DNA from: an uncultured Gammaproteobacteria bacterium
Lineage (GTDB): Bacteria > Patescibacteriota > Patescibacteriia > Patescibacteriales > UBA12465
Direction of reading: 5' to 3'
DNA: 64,000 nucleotides
NCBI GenBank assembly: GCA_964406935.1
Contig: CAYOTM010000001.1
Span: forward strand, 11,092 to 75,091
Shown: piece after piece, positions 5,788-62,932 of the stretch
How the letters are laid out: the number at the start of each line of letters is the position of its first letter
Position numbering within the stretch: the first letter of the stretch is position 1
Program-made: the position numbers and the translations under genes
The notes under the pieces: generated by a model
Told to the model about the DNA's origin: nothing
Database searches by the model: none
What the model saw: the letters and a program-made list of their open reading frames with translations, nothing else

Positions 5788-8469
5788 TTATAGATCCCTC
5801 CCTTTTTCTACTTCAATTTCTCCGCGATAATTAACAATCACCGTATCACGACGCTTGAGCTCACCAGCTAATAATTTATTAGCAATAATATTTTCTACTT
5901 TGTCTTGCAATAAGCGACGCAACGGGCGAGCGCCAAATTTGGGATCATAACCTTGACGGGCTAACTCTAAAACACCGTCACGATCAGCTCGCATAAATAA
6001 ACCCTTGCTAGTAATGTTTTGCTTAATATTTTTCAACATCAAGGTAGCAATTCTAAAAATATGATCTTCAGATAAAGGAGTAAAGACAATAATCCCATCA
6101 AAACGATTAATTAATTCCGGGCGCATATGTTGATTTAAGCGATTATCAACTAATTCTTGTCTGATTTCTTCAACTTTCGTATTTTTCTTAATTTCCTCTT
6201 GAATGTAGTTGGCTCCGATATTAGAAGTGGCGATAATAATTGATTCGGTAAAACTAATCGTTCTTCCCTGACCATCAGTTAAGCGTCCGTCATCAAGCAT
6301 TTGTAAAAATAAATTTAAAATATCGGGATGCGCTTTTTCAATTTCATCAAATAAAATTAGGGCAAAAGGTTTTTTACGCACCGCTTCGGTTAAATGACCC
6401 AAAGTACCGTCAACATCACCAATCATTTTGCGAACACTCTCCGGGCGCTGATATTCACTCATATCAATCCGGACCATATATTGTTCGCCGCCAAAGTAAA
6501 CCTCAGACACGGTTTTGGCTAATTCGGTTTTACCAACGCCAGTTGGCCCTAAAAAGAGAAAGCTAGCAATTGGCCGTTTATTGTCTTTAATGGCTGCTCG
6601 CGAGCGCCTTAAACTAGCTGCCACTGCCTTGACAGCTTCTTCTTGACCAATCATGCGACGATGAATTTCCTCTTCTAAATTTAATAATTTAACACTTTCA
6701 TCTTCGGTAATTTTTTGAATCGGGACACCAATTAAGTCAGAAATTGCCGCCGACACTTCCTCGCCCTGACATAGGGCTCGCTGAGGATCGTGACGAGCTG
6801 CTTTAGCGGAAATGATGGCGGCTGATCGTAAAAGATCAATTGCCTTGGCGGGTAAAAATTTATCGTGTAAATATTTGACTGACAATTTAACCGCCTGATC
6901 AAGGGCGCTATAAGAAAAAAAGATACCGTGGTTGGCTTCAATGCTAGCCACTTTACTTTCTAAAATTTGAATTACCTGATTATGACTGGGCTCCGCAACG
7001 CCCACGGTAGTCATCGCTTCACCCAAGGCCTGCCCCTCAACATAACGAGAATAATTTTCCGAATTAACCGTCGCTAAACAATAAACATGCCGACGCGTTA
7101 AGGCCTCGGCTAAAACTTCCGATAAATCTAAGCTTTGTTCTTGGCCGGCCGTAATCCCAATAATATTTTCAATGTTATTAATATACAAAACGATATTGCC
7201 AGCCCGACTAGCTTCACTAATTGAACTAAGCATTCTTTCCTGAGAAACATTGGGATTAGCGCCACTGACTAAGCGAGAAATATCCAGTTCAACCAAGCGA
7301 CGATCTTTTAAAAATTTTGGCACTTCTTCGCTAACCATTAATTGGGCGATACCTTCGACAATCGTTCGTTTGCCAACACCAGTATGTCCAACTAGTAAAA
7401 TTCCTGTTTGACCACTAGCCAAAGATTCAAAAACAGAATCAATTTCTTGTTGACGACCGACACAAAATTCTAAACGACCATTTTTAGCTGCTAAGGTTAA
7501 GTCATGTGAAAAGTGATCTAGGGTGGGTGTAGCAATCGCCGTATAGGCACGATTCATGCCGCTTGATGGTTTAAAAGCCGCTAGCTTCCGCCAAGAACGT
7601 AAACGATCTAACATTTTTTCATTGGTAAAGGCCCAAGCGACCACATTTTTTAACTTATCTTCATCAAGCTCTAAATCATACAAAATATCGGCTAATAATT
7701 TATCTTGAGACCAGCAAAAGGCCAAGAGATTAACTGGATTAACCGCTGGCTGACGCCGCCTAACTGTTTCTTGAAAAGCAAAAATTAATAATTCCTGTAA
7801 TTTATCAGACCACTTTAGTTTACCAGTAAATTCTTGAGGATCATTAATATTTAAATGTTTATCTAATTTAGTTACTAAGTCAGGAGCAGAAATGCCTAAG
7901 CGAACAAATAAAGCTTGGACTTCTTTATTTTTTAACAAAGCTCTAAATAAATGCAAAACACCCACTTCATTTTGTTTTAAACGATTAGTAAGCAGCCAAG
8001 CATCTTCTAAAACAATATCGGCCGCCTGACTATAGGCTTGACTAACATTATAGTCAATTAATTTACTGTTTAAGGGAACATCATCTTGATTAAATGGTTT
8101 GTGATGAATTTTATTAATCGCGGCCTGCTCTTCGCTTTGACGATAAATAAAAAAGAGGGCAAAGGACCAAGAAAGGAGAAACCATAAAACTAGTGGGTGG
8201 GGCTGTCGCCAAAACATTAAAAGTTCCCGGGGATCAAGTTGAATACTTTGGGTTTGTAAAAACAACCAAATAAGTAAAGCTAGCCAACCAGAAATTGCTA
8301 ACCCTAAAGAAATTTTTTTAATTAATTTATCAAGTTGGCGACGGCTACGAATTAAGACAATAAAAGCTAAGCTCAAATCTAACTTCCAATACAAAAAATG
8401 TTGACGCCAATTTAGACCCCAGTGATTACTCTCAGCTTGATGATAAAATTTAATCTCCACCTCATCCAT
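5788..8469 (-). CDS. membrane-anchored Hsp100/Clp-family AAA+ protein (ClpB/ClpC paralog) with a degenerate first nucleotide-binding domain
   Basis: 893 aa: 2-3 N-terminal TM helices, Clp_N-like repeats, then NBD1 with GHTGVGKR (Walker A Thr to Arg) and VLYINNIEN (Walker B DE to NN), then an intact NBD2 ([32 protein letters not shown]). No M-domain coiled coil and no IGF/LGF ClpP-docking loop. Confidence 0.8.
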   Translation of the reverse strand: MDEVEIKFYHQAESNHWGLNWRQHFLYWKLDLSLAFIVLIRSRRQLDKLIKKISLGLAISGWLALLIWLFLQTQSIQLDPRELLMFWRQPHPLVLWFLLSWSFALFFIYRQSEEQAAINKIHHKPFNQDDVPLNSKLIDYNVSQAYSQAADIVLEDAWLLTNRLKQNEVGVLHLFRALLKNKEVQALFVRLGISAPDLVTKLDKHLNINDPQEFTGKLKWSDKLQELLIFAFQETVRRRQPAVNPVNLLAFCWSQDKLLADILYDLELDEDKLKNVVAWAFTNEKMLDRLRSWRKLAAFKPSSGMNRAYTAIATPTLDHFSHDLTLAAKNGRLEFCVGRQQEIDSVFESLASGQTGILLVGHTGVGKRTIVEGIAQLMVSEEVPKFLKDRRLVELDISRLVSGANPNVSQERMLSSISEASRAGNIVLYINNIENIIGITAGQEQSLDLSEVLAEALTRRHVYCLATVNSENYSRYVEGQALGEAMTTVGVAEPSHNQVIQILESKVASIEANHGIFFSYSALDQAVKLSVKYLHDKFLPAKAIDLLRSAAIISAKAARHDPQRALCQGEEVSAAISDLIGVPIQKITEDESVKLLNLEEEIHRRMIGQEEAVKAVAASLRRSRAAIKDNKRPIASFLFLGPTGVGKTELAKTVSEVYFGGEQYMVRIDMSEYQRPESVRKMIGDVDGTLGHLTEAVRKKPFALILFDEIEKAHPDILNLFLQMLDDGRLTDGQGRTISFTESIIIATSNIGANYIQEEIKKNTKVEEIRQELVDNRLNQHMRPELINRFDGIIVFTPLSEDHIFRIATLMLKNIKQNITSKGLFMRADRDGVLELARQGYDPKFGARPLRRLLQDKVENIIANKLLAGELKRRDTVIVNYRGEIEVEKGRDL

Positions 8470-8473
8470 AAGT

Positions 8474-8914
8474 TTAGGCTAATAATTGTTCATAAATTGC
8501 CCAAGCTAAAGCTAGGGGCCAGGCAATCCATAAAATAACCAAAATTAAACAAGCGATTAACCAGGCGAGTAAAATAAAGGTACGGGCAACAATTTGTACT
8601 AAGCGAACCAAGAAACTAATAAGTCGACCAGTGATATCAAATTGACCATACATCGGGACAAAAATATTTTTGATCCACACCCAGACCCCTAAAGAATAAA
8701 ACTGATCTTGCCAAAAATAAAAAATTCGTTTGGAAAAACGAAGTAAGCCGGTGCTATACCACCAGACTGGAAAATATAAAAATTGACCAACGACACCCGC
8801 TAATAAAGAAAAACGGGTGGTAAAATAATTATCAGACTTCATACTTAAATAGTATACCACAAAAAGACTAGAGGATAAATATAAAAAAATTATTATTGCC
8901 CAATAATTAAACAA
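8474..8914 (-). CDS. small Trp-rich membrane protein co-transcribed with the Clp paralog
   Basis: 146 aa with 4 predicted TM helices. Its stop lies 5 bp before the Clp-paralog start. Confidence 0.5.
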   Translation of the reverse strand: MFNYWAIIIFLYLSSSLFVVYYLSMKSDNYFTTRFSLLAGVVGQFLYFPVWWYSTGLLRFSKRIFYFWQDQFYSLGVWVWIKNIFVPMYGQFDITGRLISFLVRLVQIVARTFILLAWLIACLILVILWIAWPLALAWAIYEQLLA

Positions 8915-8957: not shown

Positions 8958-8984
8958 TTAGCACTCTCAAATTGAGACTGCTAA
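8958..8984. promoter_or_regulatory. CIRCE-like HrcA operator between the divergent clp-paralog operon and clpB
   Basis: TTAGCACTC-tcaaattga-GACTGCTAA against consensus TTAGCACTC-N9-GAGTGCTAA (1 mismatch). Confidence 0.6.
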
Positions 8985-9009: not shown

Positions 9010-11637
9010 ATGTTCAATAAATTTACCGATAAATCACAGGAGGCGATTATTAATGCCCAAGTAATTGCTAGCAATTTTGGCCAAGCTAGCATTGAAGCCA
9101 TCCACTTATTATTATCTCTCTTGCAACAAAATGAAGGCCTAGTAAAGCCTGTTTTGGAAAAATTAAAAATTGACCCCGAGGTAGTGGAAACTTATGCTCT
9201 AGATGAAATTAAAAAATTACCCAGCAGTGAAATTACTCGACCCAGTGGTCCGATTCAGGCTGTCTCTGGAAACAATGAAACCGCCCTGGTTTTAGAAAGA
9301 TCAAAAAAAGAATCCGACGGCATGGGCGATGAATTTATTTCCACCGAACACATTTTCTTAGCTTTAATTGGCATCAAGTCAGCTGCCCAACAAATTCTTC
9401 TAAATTTTAAAGTGGAGTATCAAGAGGTAAAAACTATTCTTCAAGAATTACGCGGTGACGCTAAAATTACTGACCCCTTCCCTGAAACTAAATTCAAAGT
9501 TTTAGAAAAATATACCACTAACTTAACTGGACTAGCTCGTCAAGAAAAACTTGACCCAGTAGTTGGTCGCGACACCGAAATTAGACGCTTAATGCAAGTT
9601 TTACTTCGACGGACTAAAAATAATCCAGTCTTAATTGGTGAGGCGGGCACAGGAAAAACAGCGATTGTTGAAGGCTTAGCTCAAAGAATTGTTGATGGTG
9701 ACGTCCCAGAAAATTTAAAAAATAAAGAAATCATTACTCTTGATTTAGGATCTTTAGTGGCCGGCGCGAAATTTCGGGGCGAATTTGAAGATCGTTTAAA
9801 GGCAGTCCTTAAAGAAGTTCAAAGCCAGCAAGGAAAAATTATTTTATTTATTGATGAGCTCCATACTTTAATCGGCACCGGGGCTTCAGAAGGATCAATG
9901 GATGCTTCTAATATGTTAAAACCGGCCTTGGCCCGAGGTGAGCTTCGAACTATTGGCGCCACCACCACCAAGGAATATCAAAAATATATCGAAAAAGATG
10001 CTGCTCTGGAGCGCCGCTTTCAACCAGTTTTTGTAGCTGAGCCAAATATTGAAGATACCACTAATATGCTTCGCGGCTTAAAAGAAAAATATGAAGTTCA
10101 TCATGGAGTACACATTACTGACGATGCGTTAGTAGCGGCCGCTAAATTATCGGATCGCTACATTGCTGATCGCTTTTTACCCGATAAGGCCGTTGATTTA
10201 ATTGATGAAGCAACTTCTTCTCTGCGAATGGAAATTGATTCCATGCCCGATGAACTAGACCAGCTAAAAAGAAAGATCAAACAACTAGAGATCAACAAAG
10301 CAGCTTTATTATCAACTAACAAAAAAACTGTTAAGTTAAAAACAATTAATCAAGAATTAGCTAAAATTAAGGAGCGGGCCAAACAACTCGAACTTCACTG
10401 GACTAATGAAAAAAATATTATTTCCGATATTCGTCTCAAAAAGAAAGAGATTGAAGAATTACGTATTAAAGCAGAAATTGCCCAACGACAAGGCAGTGAT
10501 TTAACTGAAGTGGCCAAAATTAAATATGCCCTGATTCCAGAACTGGAAACCAGTATTAATAAACTTCAAGCTGATTTATTAAAAATTCAAAAGAAGGGTC
10601 AACGAATCTTAAAAGAAGAGGTTGATGAAGAAGATATTGCCAAAGTAGTTTCTCGCTGGACCGGAATTCCGGTTAACAAAATGTTAGCCGATGAAATTAA
10701 AAAATTATCCACCGCTGAAACTGAACTCCAGGCAGAAGTGATTGGCCAAGATGAAGCAATTGCCTCAATTGCTAAGGCCTTAAGACGCTCTCGCGCCGGC
10801 ATTAATGAAGAACAACGACCAATTGGCTCCTTCTTATTTATTGGTCCGACTGGTGTAGGAAAAACCGAACTAGCTAAAACCCTCACTCGCTTTATTTTTA
10901 ATGATGAAAGCGCAATGATTCGTTTAGATATGAGCGAATATATGGAAAAACATTCCGTCGCTAAATTAATTGGCTCCCCGCCCGGCTATATTGGCCATGA
11001 TGAAGGTGGCCAATTAACCGAAAAAGTCAGACGTCATCCTTACAGTGTGCTCTTGTTTGACGAAATTGAAAAAGCGCACCCCGATATGTTTAATATGCTC
11101 CTACAAATTCTCGATGATGGTCGTTTAACTGACTCCAAAGGACGAGTGGTGAACTTTAAAAATACCATTATTATTATGACCTCGAACTTAGGCAATGAAA
11201 TTATTAAACAATACTCCATTGGTTTTAGTGGCGATGAGGAAGTGTCTCTTGGCCGTGACAAGGAAATGCGAGAAAAGATTGACAAACTTTTACGTCAGCA
11301 TTTTAAATTAGAATTTATTAACCGAATCGATGAAATCGTTTTGTTTAAAAGTCTTAGCCCGGAATCTTTAGAAAAAATTGTTGATCTGGAACTAGCTAAA
11401 GTCGAGAAGCGCCTCCATAATAAAAATATTAGTCTCAAGGTTCACCAAAAAGTGAAAAAAATGTTAGCTGAAAAAGGCTATGATATTAGTTATGGCGTCA
11501 GACCCTTAAAACGAATTATTAAAACAGCTATTTTAGATGAACTAGCCAGTAAAATTATTGAAGGCAAAATTAAAGAAGGCCAAAAAGTGAAAATCGATGT
11601 TGGCCAAGAAGATAAAGTTGTCATGACGGCTGTTTAA
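9010..11637 (+). CDS. clpB: ATP-dependent chaperone ClpB
   Basis: 875 aa with a Clp_N domain, NBD1 ([27 protein letters not shown]), a long M-domain coiled coil, and NBD2 ([18 protein letters not shown]). Confidence 0.9.
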
Positions 11638-46554: not shown

Positions 46555-48294
<1,740 letters not shown>

Positions 48295-48698: not shown

Positions 48699-48725
48699 TT
48701 AGCAGTCAAGATAGTTGAGTGCTAA
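48699..48725. promoter_or_regulatory. CIRCE operator upstream of groES-groEL
   Basis: TTAGCAGTC-aagatagtt-GAGTGCTAA (1 mismatch), placed directly downstream of the -10. Confidence 0.7.
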
Positions 48726-57603: not shown

Positions 57604-58686
57604 TTATAAACCAGCCTCTTCTAAAGCTTGGCGTTGTTTACGAGACAAACCACTGGGAACTTTAATTTTAATAAGCACAAAATGATCACCTTGACCCCGA
57701 CCATTAATTTTACTAATTCCTTTATCTTTTAAGCGAAAAATTGCCCCTGAAGGAGTGCCGGCCGGAATTTTTAATTTAACCGGGCCATGAATGGTTAACA
57801 CCTCTATTTTATCACCATCAGCCGCTTGGGAAAAATTAATTTGTTGTTCACTTTTAATATCATAGCCCTGACGATTAAAATTTTTATCCGGAGCCACTTT
57901 GATCCGTAAATATAGATCGCCAGCTTCACCTTGATCTAAAATTTCTCCCTTACCAGTTAAACGAAGACTACTGCCGTCATCAATTCCCGCTGGAATCTTT
58001 GCTTTAAAATTTACTTTTTCTTTGCTAGTGCCCGAACCGTGACAATCGCGACAAACAGTTTTAGGGATCTTCCCTTTACCCTGACAGTTAGGACAAGTAG
58101 ATTCCATTTGAACATTTCCTAAAATAGTTTGTTGCAAACGACTTACTCGTCCGCGACCATTACAAGTAGGACAGGTGTTTAATTCGCTTCCTGGTTCTGC
58201 TCCCTTTCCTTGACAGCGCTGACACAAGCCTTGACGAGTATAAGAAATTTCTTTTTCGGTACCAAAAACTGCTTCCGAAAAACTTAAGTTTACCGACATC
58301 TCTAAATCACGTCCGCGCTTAGCTGATCGTCGACCGCTAGAACGATTACCACCGAAACCAAACCAATCGCCAAAACCACCAAAAATATCATTTAAATCTT
58401 CAAAGTCAACTTGAAAACCGCCATTATTTTGAAAGCCAGAAAAACCACCCCAATTATGAGCGCCTCCCTGAGCACCATTAAAAGCAGCTTCACCAAATTG
58501 ATCGTATCGGCGACGCTTATCAGCATTATTTAAAACTTGATAAGCTTCATTGATTTCTTTAAACTTATCAGCGTCCCCGCCTTTATCAGGATGGTGTTGA
58601 TGAGCTTTTTTGTGAAAAGCCTTTTTAATTTCCTCTGAACTAGCCTGACGACCAATTCCTAAAATATCATAGTAATCTTTAGCCAT
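57604..58686 (-). CDS. dnaJ: chaperone DnaJ
   Basis: J domain (DYYDILGI...HPDK), Gly/Phe-rich region, four CxxCxGxG zinc-finger repeats. Confidence 0.9.
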   Translation of the reverse strand: MAKDYYDILGIGRQASSEEIKKAFHKKAHQHHPDKGGDADKFKEINEAYQVLNNADKRRRYDQFGEAAFNGAQGGAHNWGGFSGFQNNGGFQVDFEDLNDIFGGFGDWFGFGGNRSSGRRSAKRGRDLEMSVNLSFSEAVFGTEKEISYTRQGLCQRCQGKGAEPGSELNTCPTCNGRGRVSRLQQTILGNVQMESTCPNCQGKGKIPKTVCRDCHGSGTSKEKVNFKAKIPAGIDDGSSLRLTGKGEILDQGEAGDLYLRIKVAPDKNFNRQGYDIKSEQQINFSQAADGDKIEVLTIHGPVKLKIPAGTPSGAIFRLKDKGISKINGRGQGDHFVLIKIKVPSGLSRKQRQALEEAGL

Positions 58687-58761: not shown

Positions 58762-60690
58762 TTATTTGCTTTCCGGCTTGTCATCATCGACTTCGCCTTC
58801 AACTACTTCGCTGTCATCTTCATTTTTGGGAGATTCTTGCTTGGGAGTTTCTCCGGGATTATCTCCACTAGCTTGAGCACCAGCTTGATTGGCTGCCTGA
58901 TACATTGCCGCTCCAATTTTTTGAGCTAAATTATTCATTTCTTCTAATTTCTTTTTGAGATCCTCTAAATTATCAGCTTCTTGAGCGGTTTTTAATTCCG
59001 TTACTTTAGTTTCCAGTTCCGCTTTATCAGTATCCGAGATTTTATCAGCTGATTCTTTTAACATTTTTTCCGTAGTAGAAATAACGGCATCAGCTTGATT
59101 TTTAATTTCTACTTTTTCTTTTTTCTGACGATCTTCTTCGGCATGAACCTCAGCATCTTTCTTCATTTTTTCAACTTCCTCGGGTGATAAACCAGAAGAG
59201 GCGGTAATCGTAATTTTTTGCTGCTTATTAGTCGCCTTATCAGTCGCACTAACATTTAAAATTCCATTAGCATCAATATCAAATTTTACCTCTACCTGAG
59301 GGACACCCCGAGGGGCTGCCGGAATACCATCTAAAATAAAGCGTCCTAGGGTTTTATTGTCAGCGGCCATTGGTCTTTCTCCTTGAACAACATGAATTTC
59401 GACACTAGTTTGACCATCAGCGGCGGTCGAAAAAACTTGTGATTTTGAAGTTGGAATCGTGCTGTTTCTATCAATTAAAGTAGTGGCTACTCCACCTAAA
59501 GTTTCAATTCCTAAATTTAAAGGAGTAACATCTAATAAAAGAACATCTTTAACGTCACCCTGTAAAACACCAGCTTGAACCGCTGCTCCTAGAGCCACTA
59601 CTTCATCAGGATTAACACTTAAGTTTGGTTCTTTGCCAAAAAACTCCTTAACTTTTTGCTGAACAATCGGCATTCTGGTCATCCCGCCGACCAAAATCAC
59701 TTCTTCAATATCGGTAACCTTATAACCAGCGTCGGCCAAAGCTTTTTTGCACGGCTCAATTGTTTTCTCAACTAAATCGCTAACCAATGACTCTAATTTA
59801 GACCGACTAAGTTTCATTACTAAATGTTTAGGCCCATTGGCATCGGTGCTAATAAAAGGTTGGTTAATTTCTGTTTCCATGGCCGTGGAAAGTTCAATTT
59901 TTGCTTTTTCCGCCGCTTCTTTGATGCGTTGCAAAGCGAGAACATCTTTAGATAAATCAATTCCTTGATCTTTTTTAAATTCTTCGATAATCCAAGCAAT
60001 TATTCTTTGATCAAAGTCCTCGCCACCTAAGTGAGTATCCCCAGTGGTTGCTTTAACTTCAACCGTATCAGCTGAAATATCTAAAACCGAGACATCAAAA
60101 GTTCCTCCTCCTAAATCATAAACTACTACTTGTTGACCCTTCTTTTTGTCAAAGCCATAAGCTAAGGCGGCGGCCGTTGGTTCATTAATAATCCGCTTAA
60201 TTTCTAAACCAGCGATTTGACCAGCATCTTTAGTGGCTTGACGTTGAGAGTCATCAAAATAAGCCGGCACAGTAATGATGGCTTCAGTTATTTTTTCCCC
60301 TAATTTAGACTCAGCATCAGCCTTCATCTTAGCCAAAATCATGGCTGATACTTCTTGGGGAGAATATTCTTTGTCTCCCATTTTTACCTTAACACCTTCA
60401 CCTGATTTTACAATTTTATAAGGCGCAGTTTGTAAATCACGTTGCACTTCTTCATCTTCAAAGCGACGCCCGATTAAACGCTTAACCGCATAAACCGTGT
60501 TTTCAGGGTTAATCACCGCTTGGCGCTTAGCTGATTGACCAGCTAAACGTTCGTTATTTTTGGAAATAGCAACGATTGAAGGGGTGGTACGATTGCCTTC
60601 AATATTTTCAATTATTTTAGGACTACCTCCCTCCATAATCGCCATCGCACTATTGGTAGTTCCTAAATCAATTCCTAAAATTTTTCCCAT
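58762..60690 (-). CDS. dnaK: chaperone DnaK (Hsp70)
   Basis: [27 protein letters not shown]; 642 aa. Confidence 0.95.
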
Positions 60691-60804: not shown

Positions 60805-61245
60805 TTATTTATTTTTAGTCTGAATTTTAATAGTTTTAGGCTTAACTTCAGCTGCCTTAGGAATAAAAATCTTTAAAATTCCATCCTCATTAACAGCGCT
60901 CGCTTTTTCGCCCTCAACTTTAGTTGGTAAGGGAACAGAGCGATAAAAAGAACCTCGACGAATTTCTTTACGATAATAATTTTTATCTTCTATCTCACTC
61001 TTTTTTTCACTTTCTCCTTTAATACAAAGGACATCGTTCTCAATAGAAATATGCACTTTCTCCGGATCAATACCGGCTAATTGGGTTTCGACAATGATGT
61101 TGTCTTTGTCTTCATACATATCCAAGGCGGGAGTAAAACCAAATTGATTGCCACGCACTGCGGGCAACATTTCATTAAAGGCCTTATCCATGTCATCAAA
61201 GCCAAAGCCATCATTTAAGAAGGGACTCCATTTAATTAATGACAT
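60805..61245 (-). CDS. Hsp20/alpha-crystallin small heat-shock protein
   Basis: Alpha-crystallin domain (...VETQLAGIDPEKVHISIENDVLCIKGE...GILKIFIPK); 146 aa. Confidence 0.85.
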   Translation of the reverse strand: MSLIKWSPFLNDGFGFDDMDKAFNEMLPAVRGNQFGFTPALDMYEDKDNIIVETQLAGIDPEKVHISIENDVLCIKGESEKKSEIEDKNYYRKEIRRGSFYRSVPLPTKVEGEKASAVNEDGILKIFIPKAAEVKPKTIKIQTKNK

Positions 61246-61317: not shown

Positions 61318-62172
61318 TTATTTTTCATTATTATTTTCTAGTTCGGAAGCAACAATTACTTTAGCTGGTTTGAGCAAGCGACCATTCAATTTATAGCCAG
61401 GGGAAATTTCTTTAACCACTGCCCCTCCTTGTCCTTCAATTGCCTCCATAGTGTGATGATCAAATTGAGCACCAACGGTAGAAATTTCTTCAACTCCGTG
61501 ACTATTTAAAACTTCTTTAAATTGCCGTAAAACATGGTTAACTCCTGCCACCCAAGCATTATCCTGTTCAGCTGGCGGCAAGGAAGAAATTGATAATTTT
61601 AAATGATCATAAACGGGTAATAATTCATGCAAAAAATCATTTAAAGCAAACTTAGCAAATTCTTCTTTTTCTCGATTAGTTTTTTTCAATAAATTCTGAT
61701 AATCAGCTAAAGACCGCTGATATTTATCTTGATAATCTTCAGCTTGAACAGCTTGACAACTAAGCCAGTGCTTAATTAAATTGCTAGTCAAATCAGAAAT
61801 TTTTAAAGTAGTTAATTCTTGTTCATCTTTTAACCACCGATACCGCGTTTCATCCAACTTATCAGTCAATTTTTTATCATCAACGGCCACCGCAAAATTT
61901 AAAGAAATTAATGATTTATCTGACGAATAATCAGTAAGATTAAGATTATCTAAATTAGTGATAAATTCAATTTTTTCTGGCTTAAAACCAAAGTGCTCAG
62001 CAAAAATTCTATCAACTGCTTGTTCAATTGTTTCCCCTAACACAACCCGATCAGAGATTAATGACCAATCTTTATCTGCTTGATGATTTTTAGTTAATAA
62101 TACTTCTGGCTTATTATTATAAGGCAAAATATTAATAATTAACTGGGAATTTAAGTGTTTTTTTTCAATCAT
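61318..62172 (-). CDS. grpE: GrpE nucleotide-exchange factor with an N-terminal ~130-aa extension carrying a degenerate MutT-like Nudix box
   Basis: C-terminus FDHHTMEAIEG and GYKLNGRLLKPAKVIV are GrpE hallmarks. N-terminus LGETIEQAVDRIFAEHFGF against E. coli MutT GETPEQAVVRELQEEVGI. Confidence 0.8.
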   Translation of the reverse strand: MIEKKHLNSQLIINILPYNNKPEVLLTKNHQADKDWSLISDRVVLGETIEQAVDRIFAEHFGFKPEKIEFITNLDNLNLTDYSSDKSLISLNFAVAVDDKKLTDKLDETRYRWLKDEQELTTLKISDLTSNLIKHWLSCQAVQAEDYQDKYQRSLADYQNLLKKTNREKEEFAKFALNDFLHELLPVYDHLKLSISSLPPAEQDNAWVAGVNHVLRQFKEVLNSHGVEEISTVGAQFDHHTMEAIEGQGGAVVKEISPGYKLNGRLLKPAKVIVASELENNNEK

Positions 62173-62188
62173 AGGTGTTTAATAACAA

Positions 62189-62875
62189 TTATTTTAATTT
62201 TTCTTGAATCAAAGATAAAAGAGCTGCATTATGGCCATAATTCATTCGCATTGGACCTAAAATTCCACATAAACCAGAGTGATTCTTTTGACGATATTTT
62301 ATCATTGTTGTTCCTAAAAAAGGCCCAAAGGGATTATTAGTGCCGACTTTAAAATACAAGCCATCAGCTAATTCATCAAACAACTTGTCAATAATTTCTT
62401 CCATTCGATCAATTACTAAAGAAACATCATAAACAGCTTCTGATTGTTTAAACTCTGGTTGCATAAAAATATTAGACAAACCAGTATAATACAAATCATT
62501 TTTATGGAAGGCCCAAAAAATAGCATTACCGGCTAAATCTGCTAAAACTTTAGCTGTATTGCGTAAATCCCGATTTAAAGTATCTAAAGACTCAGCTACA
62601 CGACTAGCTTCGATAGTTTTTAGCTCGGGCAAATGATCACCTAAAGCTTCAATTTCCAATAAATAAGCCGCCTCGGTTGGCACTCTTCCGGCTGAGGTGT
62701 GCGGTTGATAAATGTAGCCTGATTCCTCAAGGGCCATTAAATCATTGCGAATAGTCGCTGGTGAGACCCCTAAGCGATAATTAGCGGCCAATCCTCCAGA
62801 GGACACTGGTTGACCAGTTTTGACATACTCTTTAATTAGAGTCCGCAAAATTAATTGTTGACGATTTTGACTCAT
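62189..62875 (-). CDS. hrcA: heat-inducible transcription repressor HrcA
   Basis: QRQQLILRTLIKEYVKTGQPVSSGGLA...ATIRNDLMALEESGYIYQPHTSAGRVPT. Confidence 0.85.
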   Translation of the reverse strand: MSQNRQQLILRTLIKEYVKTGQPVSSGGLAANYRLGVSPATIRNDLMALEESGYIYQPHTSAGRVPTEAAYLLEIEALGDHLPELKTIEASRVAESLDTLNRDLRNTAKVLADLAGNAIFWAFHKNDLYYTGLSNIFMQPEFKQSEAVYDVSLVIDRMEEIIDKLFDELADGLYFKVGTNNPFGPFLGTTMIKYRQKNHSGLCGILGPMRMNYGHNAALLSLIQEKLK

Positions 62876-62905
62876 ATATTTTTGATATTGTTATTATAAA
62901 AAAAA

Positions 62906-62932
62906 TTAGCACTCAAGTCAAGAGAGTGCTAA
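62906..62932. promoter_or_regulatory. CIRCE operator (perfect consensus) upstream of hrcA-grpE-hsp20-dnaK-dnaJ
   Basis: TTAGCACTC-aagtcaaga-GAGTGCTAA. Confidence 0.8.

What the first reader, a model, noticed from the sequence alone, without database searches (positions are those of the whole stretch)
61318..62172. GrpE carries an N-terminal domain with a MutT-like but catalytically degenerate Nudix box
The C-terminal 150 aa is canonical GrpE. The first ~130 aa are not the usual disordered tail: residues 46-63 read LGETIEQAVDRIFAEHFGF, nearly superimposable on E. coli MutT GETPEQAVVRELQEEVGI. The catalytic R-E-x-x-E-E is changed to R-I-x-x-E-H. This suggests a Nudix-fold (pseudo)enzyme domain grafted onto the DnaK nucleotide-exchange factor, possibly a nucleotide-sensing module. 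The motif maps to nt 61984-62037.
Basis: seen in the sequence. Interest (0 to 1): 0.55.

Follow-up and report, generated by a model that had tools for sequence, protein, structure and literature searches.

The report
GrpE with a dead Nudix head
The DnaK co-chaperone GrpE of this candidate-phyla-radiation bacterium carries, in place of its usual floppy N-terminal tail, a folded Nudix-hydrolase domain whose catalytic residues have decayed; relatives across Patescibacteria carry the same fusion with an intact enzyme motif, and I found no paper that describes it.

Summary
Observation confirmed. ORF 61318-62172 (- strand, 284 aa) is one uninterrupted gene. Residues 141-275 are GrpE (Pfam E 1e-37). 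Residues 13-116 match Pfam NUDIX above its curated cut-off (31.9 vs 21.1 bits). AlphaFold2 (mean pLDDT 86.8) plus Foldseek give both a GrpE fold and a Nudix fold.

The Nudix box is degenerate at 3 of 9 signature positions (G->D41, E->I56, E->H60). Only 5 of 19 family-conserved polar/Gly/Pro positions survive, but 34 of 41 hydrophobic-core positions do. That pattern fits a pseudoenzyme.

This is a divergent, nearly orphan member of a large Patescibacteria family of Nudix-GrpE fusions (named sources: Falkowbacteria, Magasanikiibacteriota, Moranbacteria, Pacebacteria, Parcubacteria). In that family the box is usually intact (116/119 in one set, about 75% in the other). The fusion always sits in a CIRCE/HrcA-controlled hrcA-grpE-hsp20-dnaK operon, and often carries DUF1653 as well. 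The resemblance is not specific to MutT (E 1.4); intact relatives are nearest NudI/MutT-type enzymes.

Most likely this is a working GrpE whose Nudix head no longer hydrolyses and is kept as a structural or ligand-binding module. I found no paper describing the fusion. It is a new variant of a known kind, of moderate interest.

The parts
62893..62921 (-). sigma-70-like promoter of the operon (TTGACT-17-TATAAT, 11 of 12)
   Evidence: Consensus scan. It overlaps the CIRCE operator. A consensus match is not proof of function.
62906..62932 (.). CIRCE operator (HrcA binding site), perfect match TTAGCACTC-N9-GAGTGCTAA
   Evidence: 0 mismatches, 0.02 expected by chance. It lies 31 nt upstream of the hrcA start.
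62189..62875 (-). hrcA (short form, 228 aa), first gene of the operon
   Evidence: Pfam HrcA. Conserved at the same position in all 80 related loci.
61318..62172 (-). Nudix(degenerate)-GrpE fusion gene, 284 aa
61744..62145 (-). Nudix-fold domain, residues 10-143 (beta-alpha-beta sandwich plus C-terminal helix 127-143)
   Evidence: Pfam NUDIX 31.9 bits. AF2 secondary structure and pLDDT. Foldseek hits to GDPMH, NUDT12, RppH, Ap4A hydrolase, NudI, NrtR and AraR. hhalign probability 99.2% to the fused-Nudix profile.
61984..62052 (-). Degenerate Nudix box, residues 41-63 (D-RVVLG-E-TIEQAVD-R-I-F-A-E-H-F-G-F)
   Evidence: Alignment to 100+ homologues. G->D41, E->I56, E->H60; E47, R55, E59 and G62 are kept.
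61348..61734 (-). GrpE core, residues 147-275 (long helix 147-196, helix 206-224, beta domain 227-275)
   Evidence: Pfam GrpE E 9.7e-38. AF2. Foldseek to 9bls_C, 1dkg and 4ani. The window protein carries all 20 invariant columns of the 64-sequence alignment, 19 of them in the GrpE half.
60805..61245 (-). hsp20 (small heat-shock protein), third gene
   Evidence: Found in 79 of the 80 related loci.
58762..60690 (-). dnaK, the partner Hsp70
   Evidence: 76-90% identical to the DnaK of related loci.
57604..58686 (-). dnaJ, J-domain co-chaperone
   Evidence: J-domain HPD motif and Zn-finger CxxCxGxG repeats visible in the translation.

Best explanation
The gene encodes the GrpE nucleotide-exchange factor of the DnaK system. 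It is transcribed from a CIRCE/HrcA-repressed heat-shock operon (hrcA, nudix-grpE, hsp20, dnaK, dnaJ).

The usual disordered N-terminal tail is replaced by a folded Nudix domain. A short helix (127-143) and a three-residue break join that domain to the long GrpE stalk helix.

The domain descends from a Patescibacteria-wide Nudix-GrpE fusion whose typical members keep a complete Nudix box, and so are presumably active NudI/MutT-like pyrophosphohydrolases. In this lineage the catalytic apparatus has decayed: the first Gly and two of the three REx2EE glutamates are gone, along with a family-invariant His and 14 of 19 conserved polar/Gly/Pro positions. The hydrophobic core and the domain-to-GrpE spacing are kept.

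Shown: the domain identities, the fold, the motif decay, family membership and operon context.

Inferred: (a) the domain cannot carry out canonical Mg2+-dependent Nudix hydrolysis; (b) GrpE still exchanges nucleotide on DnaK; (c) the dead Nudix head is retained as a non-catalytic module at the tip of the GrpE stalk. That is where canonical GrpE tails meet the DnaK substrate-binding domain. The head would act as a structural or dimer-stabilising cap, or as a ligand-binding (nucleotide-sensing) regulator, as NUDT9-H does in vertebrate TRPM2 or the Nudix domain does in NrtR.
For: Domain identity and fold:
- Pfam NUDIX and GrpE both score above their cut-offs.
- The AF2 model has mean pLDDT 86.8, and most of the N-domain is near 90.
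- Foldseek finds both GrpE and Nudix structures at E 1e-7 to 1e-10. These include the non-catalytic Nudix sensors NrtR 3gz5 and AraR 5dd4.

Family membership:
- Full-length homologues share 38-46% identity over 90-97% of the length and have PF00293+PF01025 architecture.
- Their boxes read PGGHIExGExxEEALxREIxEETGL.
- A second set from Moranbacteria, Parcubacteria and Pacebacteria has 116 of 119 boxes intact.

Pseudoenzyme signature:
- 34 of 41 core columns are kept, against 5 of 19 conserved polar/Gly/Pro columns.
- The N-domain is 25-31% identical to intact ones. Intact-intact pairs at the same GrpE-domain identity share 48-52%.

Retention of dead domains elsewhere in the family:
- In the degenerate 'LGLTG' clade, pN is 0.13-0.21 against saturated pS of 0.68-0.80. 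This is comparable to intact domains.
- That clade is still homologous to Nudix by hhalign (98.8%).
- L025 keeps a partly decayed fused domain although an intact free-standing Nudix gene sits directly upstream.

Junction: the spacing from W113 to the GrpE motif is 39 residues, at the family mode of 38-40.

The GrpE half is not degenerate: its bit score equals those of relatives, and all 19 invariant columns that fall in the GrpE half are present.

Operon and CIRCE.

Precedents:
- TRPM2 NUDT9-H is catalytically inactive because of Nudix-box substitutions yet still binds ligand (PMC4974056), and it was active in ancestral lineages (PMC6461439).
- NrtR carries a Nudix-like effector domain (PMC2330246).
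- GrpE N-terminal tails act on the DnaK substrate-binding domain (PMC12915176).
Against: - No activity or binding data exist.
- The window lineage is an orphan. The nearest homologue is 46% identical. The N-domain alone has only 19 hits at E<=1e-3 among 1.84 billion representatives, the best at 30% identity. Selection on this particular dead domain therefore cannot be measured. The three contigs carrying it differ by at most one synonymous base.
- The roughly two-fold faster divergence of the N-domain fits relaxed constraint as well as it fits a new function.
- The AF2 confidence is driven by an alignment made mostly of intact homologues.
- The pTM of 0.53 means the position of the head relative to GrpE is not determined.
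- E47, R55, E59 and G62 remain, and His60 and Asp107 could still bind a metal, so residual or altered catalysis is not excluded.
Confidence: 0.55

Rival explanations
1. Evolutionary relic. The Nudix domain lost its enzymatic purpose and has no function of its own. It persists only because an unfolded or truncated N-terminus on an essential GrpE would be harmful, or because too little time has passed for deletion.
For: - Close relatives have repeatedly dropped the domain altogether. Plain GrpE and DUF1653-GrpE forms are interleaved with Nudix forms on the operon-protein tree.
- The window N-domain diverges about twice as fast as intact domains.
- 14 of 19 conserved polar/Gly/Pro positions are lost.
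- The lineage is an orphan with no sign of a newly conserved motif.
Against: - 34 of 41 core positions are still hydrophobic, against a 40% background.
- The domain-to-GrpE spacing is unchanged.
- Other dead-box clades keep the domain under purifying selection over long divergence.
- Loss looks easy, since many relatives lack the domain, so persistence suggests some benefit.
Confidence: 0.3
2. Still an enzyme with a non-canonical active site. Like GDP-mannose mannosyl hydrolase or other Nudix-fold enzymes with altered boxes, the domain uses the remaining E47, R55 and E59 plus H60, D41 and D107 to bind metal. It would hydrolyse, or otherwise convert, some nucleotide derivative.
For: - The best full-domain matches among solved structures are GDPMH, by sequence (E 0.007-0.02) and by fold (1rya E 2.4e-8). 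The best NCBIfam match is the GDPMH subfamily, E 2.4e-5. GDPMH is an active Nudix-fold enzyme with a modified box (own knowledge).
- His and Asp are competent metal ligands.
Against: - The GDPMH score is 24 bits against a cut-off of 146.
- The position aligned to the GDPMH catalytic base His124 is Asp107 here.
- In MutT, replacing the Glu equivalent to I56 or H60 by Gln lowers kcat by about 10^4-10^5 (own knowledge, Mildvan and co-workers).
- TRPM2 NUDT9-H, which also has substitutions in its Nudix box, is inactive (PMC4974056).
- The family-invariant His (S87 here) and the PGG motif are also gone.
Confidence: 0.12
3. Chance motif or annotation artefact. The N-terminal region would be a separate or spurious ORF, with only a local resemblance to a Nudix box.
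For: None found. The MutT-specific similarity alone is not significant (1mut E 1.4).
Against: - The ORF is continuous, with a stop two codons upstream of the ATG and hrcA ending 16 nt upstream.
- The match covers the whole domain in Pfam, hhalign and fold searches.
- The identical protein is found on three independent metagenome contigs.
- Both homologue searches returned full-length fusions at nearly every top rank.
Confidence: 0.01

Closest known systems
Canonical bacterial GrpE (E. coli GrpE, PDB 1DKG; Geobacillus 4ANI; human GrpEL1 9BLS)
   Same: It has the same GrpE core: stalk helix, bundle helix and beta domain (Pfam 129.9 bits; Foldseek E 8e-10 to 2e-7). It has the same operon partners (dnaK, dnaJ, hrcA/CIRCE) and presumably the same ADP/ATP exchange role.
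   Different: The canonical N-terminus is a disordered tail of roughly 30-50 residues that transiently occupies the DnaK substrate site (PMC12915176). Here only about 9 residues are disordered, followed by a 134-residue globular Nudix fold. The recent GrpE review PMC12987570 does not contain the words 'nudix' or 'fused'.
Patescibacterial Nudix-GrpE fusion proteins (e.g. KKT13008.1 of Candidatus Falkowbacteria GW2011_GWF2_43_32; MBU2474441.1; Moranbacteria homologues). They are deposited and auto-annotated, but I found no paper on them.
   Same: It shares the two-domain architecture, the operon position (hrcA-grpE-hsp20-dnaK) and the linker length. Identity is 38-46% over nearly the full length.
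   Different: Those proteins keep the full Nudix box and score 73-82 bits on Pfam NUDIX. The window protein scores 31.9 bits and has lost three box positions and most conserved polar residues. Many relatives also carry DUF1653, which this one lacks.
TRPM2 NUDT9-H domain (vertebrate)
   Same: A Nudix domain is fused to an unrelated functional module. It was catalytically active in ancestral lineages and inactivated by Nudix-box substitutions in one lineage, while the fold and ligand binding were kept (PMC4974056, PMC6461439).
   Different: The partner is a eukaryotic ion channel and the ligand (ADP-ribose) is known. Here the partner is a co-chaperone and no ligand is known. The two are analogous, not homologous beyond superfamily level.
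NrtR / AraR Nudix-related transcription regulators
   Same: A Nudix-like domain with a degenerate box serves as the effector-binding module of a two-domain protein (PMC2330246, PMC4666351). Foldseek finds 3gz5 and 5dd4 at E about 7-8e-7.
   Different: Their output domain is a winged-helix DNA binder, not GrpE. They match no better than the catalytic Nudix structures do.
E. coli MutT / NudI small Nudix NTP pyrophosphohydrolases
   Same: It shares the Nudix fold and the GETxEQAV...R...E..G core of the box. Intact relatives of the fused domain are nearest NudI (E 1e-12 to 1e-17) and MutT models.
   Different: The window domain scores far below every equivalog cut-off (MutT 14.7 bits vs 97.9) and lacks two catalytic Glu. 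It is not an orthologue of MutT.

Membership tests
GrpE nucleotide-exchange factor (PF01025) | Match to the GrpE profile above the curated cut-off | tested here: met
   129.9 bits against 25.8, residues 141-275.
GrpE nucleotide-exchange factor (PF01025) | GrpE fold: long stalk helix, bundle helix, C-terminal beta domain | tested here: met
   AF2 helices 147-196 and 206-224, strands 227-275, pLDDT above 90. Foldseek to 9bls_C, 1dkg and 4ani.
GrpE nucleotide-exchange factor (PF01025) | Genomic association with dnaK/dnaJ under heat-shock control | tested here: met
   hrcA-grpE-hsp20-dnaK-dnaJ operon with a perfect CIRCE and a promoter-like site. The same hrcA-grpE-dnaK order holds in 80 related loci, with hsp20 in 79 of them.
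GrpE nucleotide-exchange factor (PF01025) | NCBIfam GrpE equivalog cut-offs | tested here: not met
   The best is NF010750 at 91.5 bits against 194. These lineage-specific models are missed equally by the intact relatives, so this reflects CPR divergence, not loss of GrpE identity.
GrpE nucleotide-exchange factor (PF01025) | Dimerisation and acceleration of ADP release from DnaK | not testable with these tools
   Needs biochemistry or multimer modelling.
Nudix superfamily (PF00293) | Match to the NUDIX profile above the curated cut-off | tested here: met
   31.9 bits against 21.1 for the full protein, and 33.9 bits for the N-domain alone.
Nudix superfamily (PF00293) | Alpha/beta/alpha Nudix fold | tested here: met
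   AF2 strands 10-18, 24-28, 39-42, 67-75, 88-96 and 111-114, and helices 49-61 and 127-143. Dozens of Nudix structures at Foldseek E<=1e-6.
Nudix hydrolases (catalytically competent) | Nudix box G-x5-E-x7-R-E-U-x-E-E-x-G-U | tested here: not met
   D41, I56 and H60 replace G, E and E, so 6 of 9 positions are kept. The strict pattern is found nowhere in the window.
Nudix hydrolases (catalytically competent) | Mg2+/Mn2+-dependent hydrolysis of a nucleoside diphosphate derivative | not testable with these tools
   Requires an enzyme assay.
MutT (8-oxo-dGTP diphosphatase) orthologues | Equivalog model score, or significant similarity to E. coli MutT | tested here: not met
   TIGR00586 scores 14.7 bits against 97.9; NF008044 scores 13.5 against 148. 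1mut scores E 1.4.
GDP-mannose mannosyl hydrolase | Subfamily model score and the catalytic His124 | tested here: not met
   NF011963 scores 24.1 bits against 146. The aligned position is Asp107.
Patescibacterial Nudix-GrpE fusion family (defined here) | Full-length homology across both domains, and the same operon slot | tested here: met
   E 1e-68 to 1e-48 with 90-97% coverage. hhalign probability 99.2% for the N-domain. Operon conserved. Junction spacing of 39 residues against a mode of 38-40.
Patescibacterial Nudix-GrpE fusion family (defined here) | Intact catalytic motif, as in most members | tested here: not met
   Intact in 116 of 119 members in one set and about 75 of 100 in the other. 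The window protein is among the degenerate minority and decayed independently of the other dead-box clades.
Non-catalytic Nudix sensor domains (NrtR, AraR, TRPM2 NUDT9-H) | Ligand binding without turnover that controls a fused output domain | not testable with these tools
   Only fold similarity (3gz5, 5dd4) and an analogous decay pattern are available. No ligand can be inferred.

The most novel reading that the evidence does not exclude
Across Patescibacteria the GrpE N-terminus may be a modular platform (Nudix and/or DUF1653) that ties the Hsp70 nucleotide cycle to a stress nucleotide. Intact Nudix-GrpE proteins would destroy a nucleotide that interferes with DnaK. One candidate is Ap4A, which cross-links to DnaK, GroEL and ClpB in E. 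coli (PMC10148737); damaged ATP or ADP is another. Dead-box variants such as the one in this window would have become pure sensors that tune nucleotide exchange or substrate release according to that ligand, as NUDT9-H does in TRPM2.
Probability: 0.12. Interest if true: 0.75.

Novelty: new variant of a known kind. Interest (0 to 1): 0.5.

Why it matters
GrpE is the only nucleotide-exchange factor of bacterial Hsp70, and its N-terminus is normally a disordered tail that helps eject substrates. A whole radiation of ultra-small bacteria has replaced or extended that tail with a nucleotide pyrophosphohydrolase domain, usually with an intact active site. This points to a link between chaperone cycling and nucleotide or alarmone metabolism that I could not find described in the literature.

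The window protein is a natural 'catalytic-dead' version. Several other dead-box clades exist, as does one operon with a separate intact Nudix gene (L025). Together they give a ready-made comparison set for separating the enzymatic role of the domain from any structural or sensing role.

If the domain proves to be only a relic, the finding remains a tidy example of pseudoenzyme decay inside an essential fusion protein.

Tried and rejected
1. MutT orthology was rejected.
2. A GDPMH-like altered enzyme was considered because GDPMH is the best full-domain PDB and NCBIfam match. Scores are far below cut-off and the catalytic His is not conserved, so it is kept only as a low-probability rival.
3. 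I looked for a DUF1653 remnant or a separate upstream ORF. There is no room, since the spacer to hrcA is 16 nt.
4. I looked for another Nudix box in the 64-kb window. None was found.
5. dN/dS on the window lineage is impossible because there is no relative above 46% identity. In other clades synonymous sites are saturated, so only pN << pS can be stated.
6. Population variation among the three contigs carrying the gene is at most one synonymous difference in the CDS, which is uninformative. The whole-locus L001 comparison in that call was thrown off by an offset and is not used.
8. The NJ tree of concatenated DnaK+HrcA+Hsp20 is a rough proxy. I use it only to show that architectures are interleaved, not to count gains and losses.
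9. The regex-based architecture counts miss some GrpE motifs and are approximate.
10. Literature searches for any description of the fusion found nothing relevant. Only one unrelated paper mentions DUF1653.
Full report
WHAT IS THERE

The minus-strand ORF 61318-62172 encodes 284 aa. Its reading frame opens two codons upstream of the ATG, and hrcA (62189-62875) ends 16 nt upstream. The N-terminal part therefore cannot be a separate gene.

Pfam finds GrpE at residues 141-275 (129.9 bits, E 9.7e-38). It finds NUDIX at residues 13-116, covering profile positions 6-115 of 134, at 31.9 bits against a gathering cut-off of 21.1.

An AlphaFold2 model built on 64 homologues has mean pLDDT 86.8. The N-terminal strands (10-18, 24-28, 39-42, 67-75, 88-96, 111-114) and helices (49-61, 127-143) form a Nudix-type sandwich. 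A three-residue break leads into the GrpE stalk helix (147-196), the bundle helix (206-224) and the beta domain.

Foldseek against the PDB returns GrpE structures (9bls_C E 8e-10, 1dkg, 4ani). It also returns many Nudix structures at E about 1e-7: GDPMH 1rya, 3id9, NUDT12, RppH, Ap4A hydrolase 3i7u and NudI 3oga. Among them are the non-catalytic sensor domains NrtR 3gz5 and AraR 5dd4. Its only error is that the leading L is residue 45, not 46.

HOW DEGENERATE IS THE NUDIX BOX

Aligned to more than 100 homologues, the signature G-x5-E-x7-R-E-U-x-E-E-x-G-U reads D41 ... E47 ... R55-I56-F57-A58-E59-H60-F61-G62-F63. Three of nine positions are replaced: the first Gly, and the two Glu that correspond to MutT E53 and E57. 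By my own knowledge of the MutT mutagenesis literature, Gln substitutions at those two positions cost about 10^4-10^5 in kcat.

The decay extends beyond the box. Of 19 polar/Gly/Pro columns that are at least 80% conserved among the intact fused domains, the window keeps 5. The changes include PGG to ISD, an invariant His to S87 and an invariant Glu to D107. Of 41 columns that are at least 85% hydrophobic, it keeps 34, against a 40% hydrophobic background. A kept core with a lost active site is the classical signature of a pseudoenzyme.

NOT MutT IN PARTICULAR

E. coli MutT (1mut) scores E 1.4 and the MutT equivalog models score 13.5-14.7 bits against cut-offs of 98-148.

I ran an exhaustive HMMER search of the N-domain against 1.84 billion representative proteins. 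It finds only 19 proteins at E<=1e-3, and the best non-self hit is 30% identical. Roughly half are free-standing Nudix proteins of about 140 aa and the rest are longer, mostly GrpE fusions of about 290 aa. All 13 that I retrieved have intact boxes, for example GETIEQAVIRETKEETNL.

Intact relatives are nearest NudI and MutT models but fall below their cut-offs. This matches JGI's automatic label 'nucleoside triphosphatase'.

The protein belongs to a large family.

- A homologue search returns dozens of 90%-identity clusters with PF00293+PF01025 architecture. They share 38-46% identity over 90-97% of the length.
- A second search seeded with a divergent member (P0130) returns 119 further clusters, all but one with both domains.
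- Named sources are Candidatus Falkowbacteria, Magasanikiibacteriota, Moranbacteria/Moraniibacteriota, Pacebacteria, and the Parcubacteria and Patescibacteria groups.
- In all 80 species-representative loci fetched, the hrcA-grpE-dnaK order is the same, and hsp20 lies between grpE and dnaK in 79 of them.
- The box is intact in 116 of 119 members of the Moranbacteria-type set and in about three quarters of the Falkowbacteria-type set.

The N-terminus of GrpE in this group is strikingly modular:

- plain GrpE, about 155 aa
- DUF1653-GrpE, about 205 aa
- Nudix-GrpE, about 278 aa
- DUF1653-Nudix-GrpE, about 343 aa
- tandem Nudix-Nudix-GrpE, about 440-450 aa
- dead-Nudix-GrpE in several clades
- dead-Nudix-DUF1653-GrpE, with the order swapped

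On a rough tree of the neighbouring operon proteins these architectures are interleaved, so modules were lost or gained repeatedly.

The strongly decayed clades are no longer seen by Pfam above its cut-off (17 bits for P0102). They are still homologous to the intact domains by profile-profile comparison (98.8%, E 6e-17). The window domain matches the intact profile (99.2%, E 1e-19) but not the decayed clades. Its decay is therefore independent.

IS A DEAD NUDIX DOMAIN KEPT FOR A REASON

For the window lineage itself this cannot be measured. It has no relative above 46% identity, and the three contigs that carry it are nearly identical. Its N-domain has diverged about twice as far as intact domains do at a comparable GrpE-domain distance (25-31% against 48-52% identity). 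That fits either relaxed constraint or a change of function.

Indirect evidence favours retention.

- In the 'LGLTG' dead-box clade, non-synonymous differences (pN 0.13-0.21) are far below saturated synonymous differences (pS 0.68-0.80). This is similar to intact domains.
- The distance from the Nudix Y-x-W motif to the GrpE motif is tightly distributed, with a mode of 38-40 residues; the window has 39.
- In L025 an intact free-standing Nudix gene lies between hrcA and a grpE that still carries a partly decayed fused Nudix domain. That looks like catalysis moved in trans while the fused fold stayed.

MECHANISM

Shown: a complete GrpE core carrying every alignment-invariant residue, a folded Nudix head lacking the canonical catalytic set, and expression signals of an HrcA regulon. 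Those signals are a perfect CIRCE at 62906-62932 overlapping a TTGACT-17-TATAAT promoter-like site, with further CIRCE sites upstream of clpB and groES-groEL.

Inferred: the protein works as the DnaK nucleotide-exchange factor, and its Nudix head does not hydrolyse.

In canonical GrpE the disordered N-terminal tails sit near the DnaK substrate-binding domain. They transiently occupy its peptide groove to promote substrate release in a temperature-dependent way (PMC12915176). Here only about nine residues precede the globular domain. That tail function is probably either replaced or modified by the head.

I think the most likely role is a non-catalytic structural or ligand-binding module at the stalk tip (confidence 0.55). 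There are experimentally established parallels. TRPM2's NUDT9-H domain is inactive through Nudix-box substitutions yet still binds ligand, and was active in ancestral lineages (PMC4974056, PMC6461439). NrtR and AraR use Nudix-like effector domains (PMC2330246, PMC4666351).

Rivals:
- A functionless relic (0.30).
- A non-canonical enzyme (0.12). GDPMH is the best full-domain match, but at 24 bits against a cut-off of 146 and with Asp107 in place of its catalytic His.
- An artefact (0.01, refuted).

NOVELTY

The fusion proteins are in public databases and are labelled automatically as 'nucleotide exchange factor GrpE', 'ADP-ribose pyrophosphatase' or 'GrpE / MutT (NUDIX family)'.

Full-text searches of 8 million papers and preprints found none that connects GrpE and Nudix as a fusion, and none in a Patescibacteria context. 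A 2025 review of GrpE-like factors mentions neither 'nudix' nor 'fused'. The only extra-domain GrpE that surfaced is an HTH-GrpE of Anabaena (bioRxiv 10.1101/2025.04.14.648684).

I therefore rate it a new variant of a known kind. GrpE and Nudix are both familiar, whereas their systematic fusion, its modular partners and its repeated inactivation appear not to have been described.

Interest is moderate (0.5). For the Hsp70 field, an exchange factor physically tied to a nucleotide hydrolase is unexpected and directly testable. The specific window protein, however, is the decayed form, and no function can be assigned computationally.

The boldest reading not excluded is coupling of the Hsp70 cycle to an alarmone such as Ap4A, which cross-links to DnaK, GroEL and ClpB in E. 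coli (PMC10148737), with dead-box variants acting as sensors. I give that a probability of about 0.12.

Noticed in passing
window 8958-8984, 48699-48725 and 62906-62932: There are three CIRCE inverted repeats (1, 1 and 0 mismatches; 0.02 expected by chance). They lie upstream of clpB (9010-11637 +), of groES-groEL (48614-46555 -) and of the hrcA operon. Together they form a compact HrcA regulon covering ClpB, GroESL and the DnaK system.
   Followed up: partly
window 62189-62875 (-) and L004-L083: HrcA is only 228 aa here and in all 80 related loci. By my own knowledge, typical HrcA is about 340 aa. A short HrcA appears to be a lineage-wide trait of these Patescibacteria.
   Followed up: partly
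related loci, e.g. L013 3788-4441, L010 3764-4795, L063 3416-4399: In many relatives DUF1653 (PF07866; the only solved relative is the uncharacterised 3be3) is fused to the N-terminus of GrpE, alone or ahead of the Nudix domain. In P0078, P0090 and L063 the order is swapped (dead-Nudix, DUF1653, GrpE). I found no study of DUF1653 function; the only paper mentioning it is an unrelated proteomics report.
   Followed up: partly
L025 339-2371: The operon variant is hrcA, then a free-standing intact Nudix gene (1071-1508, 145 aa), then a GrpE with a partly decayed fused Nudix domain (RKIKDE; 1532-2371). It is a natural split of catalytic and fused copies.
   Followed up: partly
proteins P0047, P0203, P0206, P0208: These are tandem Nudix-Nudix-GrpE proteins of 438-451 aa. 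Pfam shows two NUDIX stretches in P0047.
   Followed up: no
window 5788-8469 (-): An 893-aa Clp/Hsp100-type AAA+ ORF with a hydrophobic, membrane-like N-terminal region lies divergently next to clpB. A 146-aa hydrophobic ORF (8474-8914) sits between them. I did not examine it.
   Followed up: no
L004, L007, L011 and many other loci: Many species-representative MAGs that carry this typically patescibacterial operon are titled 'uncultured Gammaproteobacteria bacterium' in their TPA records. This looks like a labelling artefact of the submission.
   Followed up: no
window 46555-48249 (-): GroEL ends in a GGM-repeat tail ([18 protein letters not shown]), as in many bacteria. This is ordinary.
   Followed up: no
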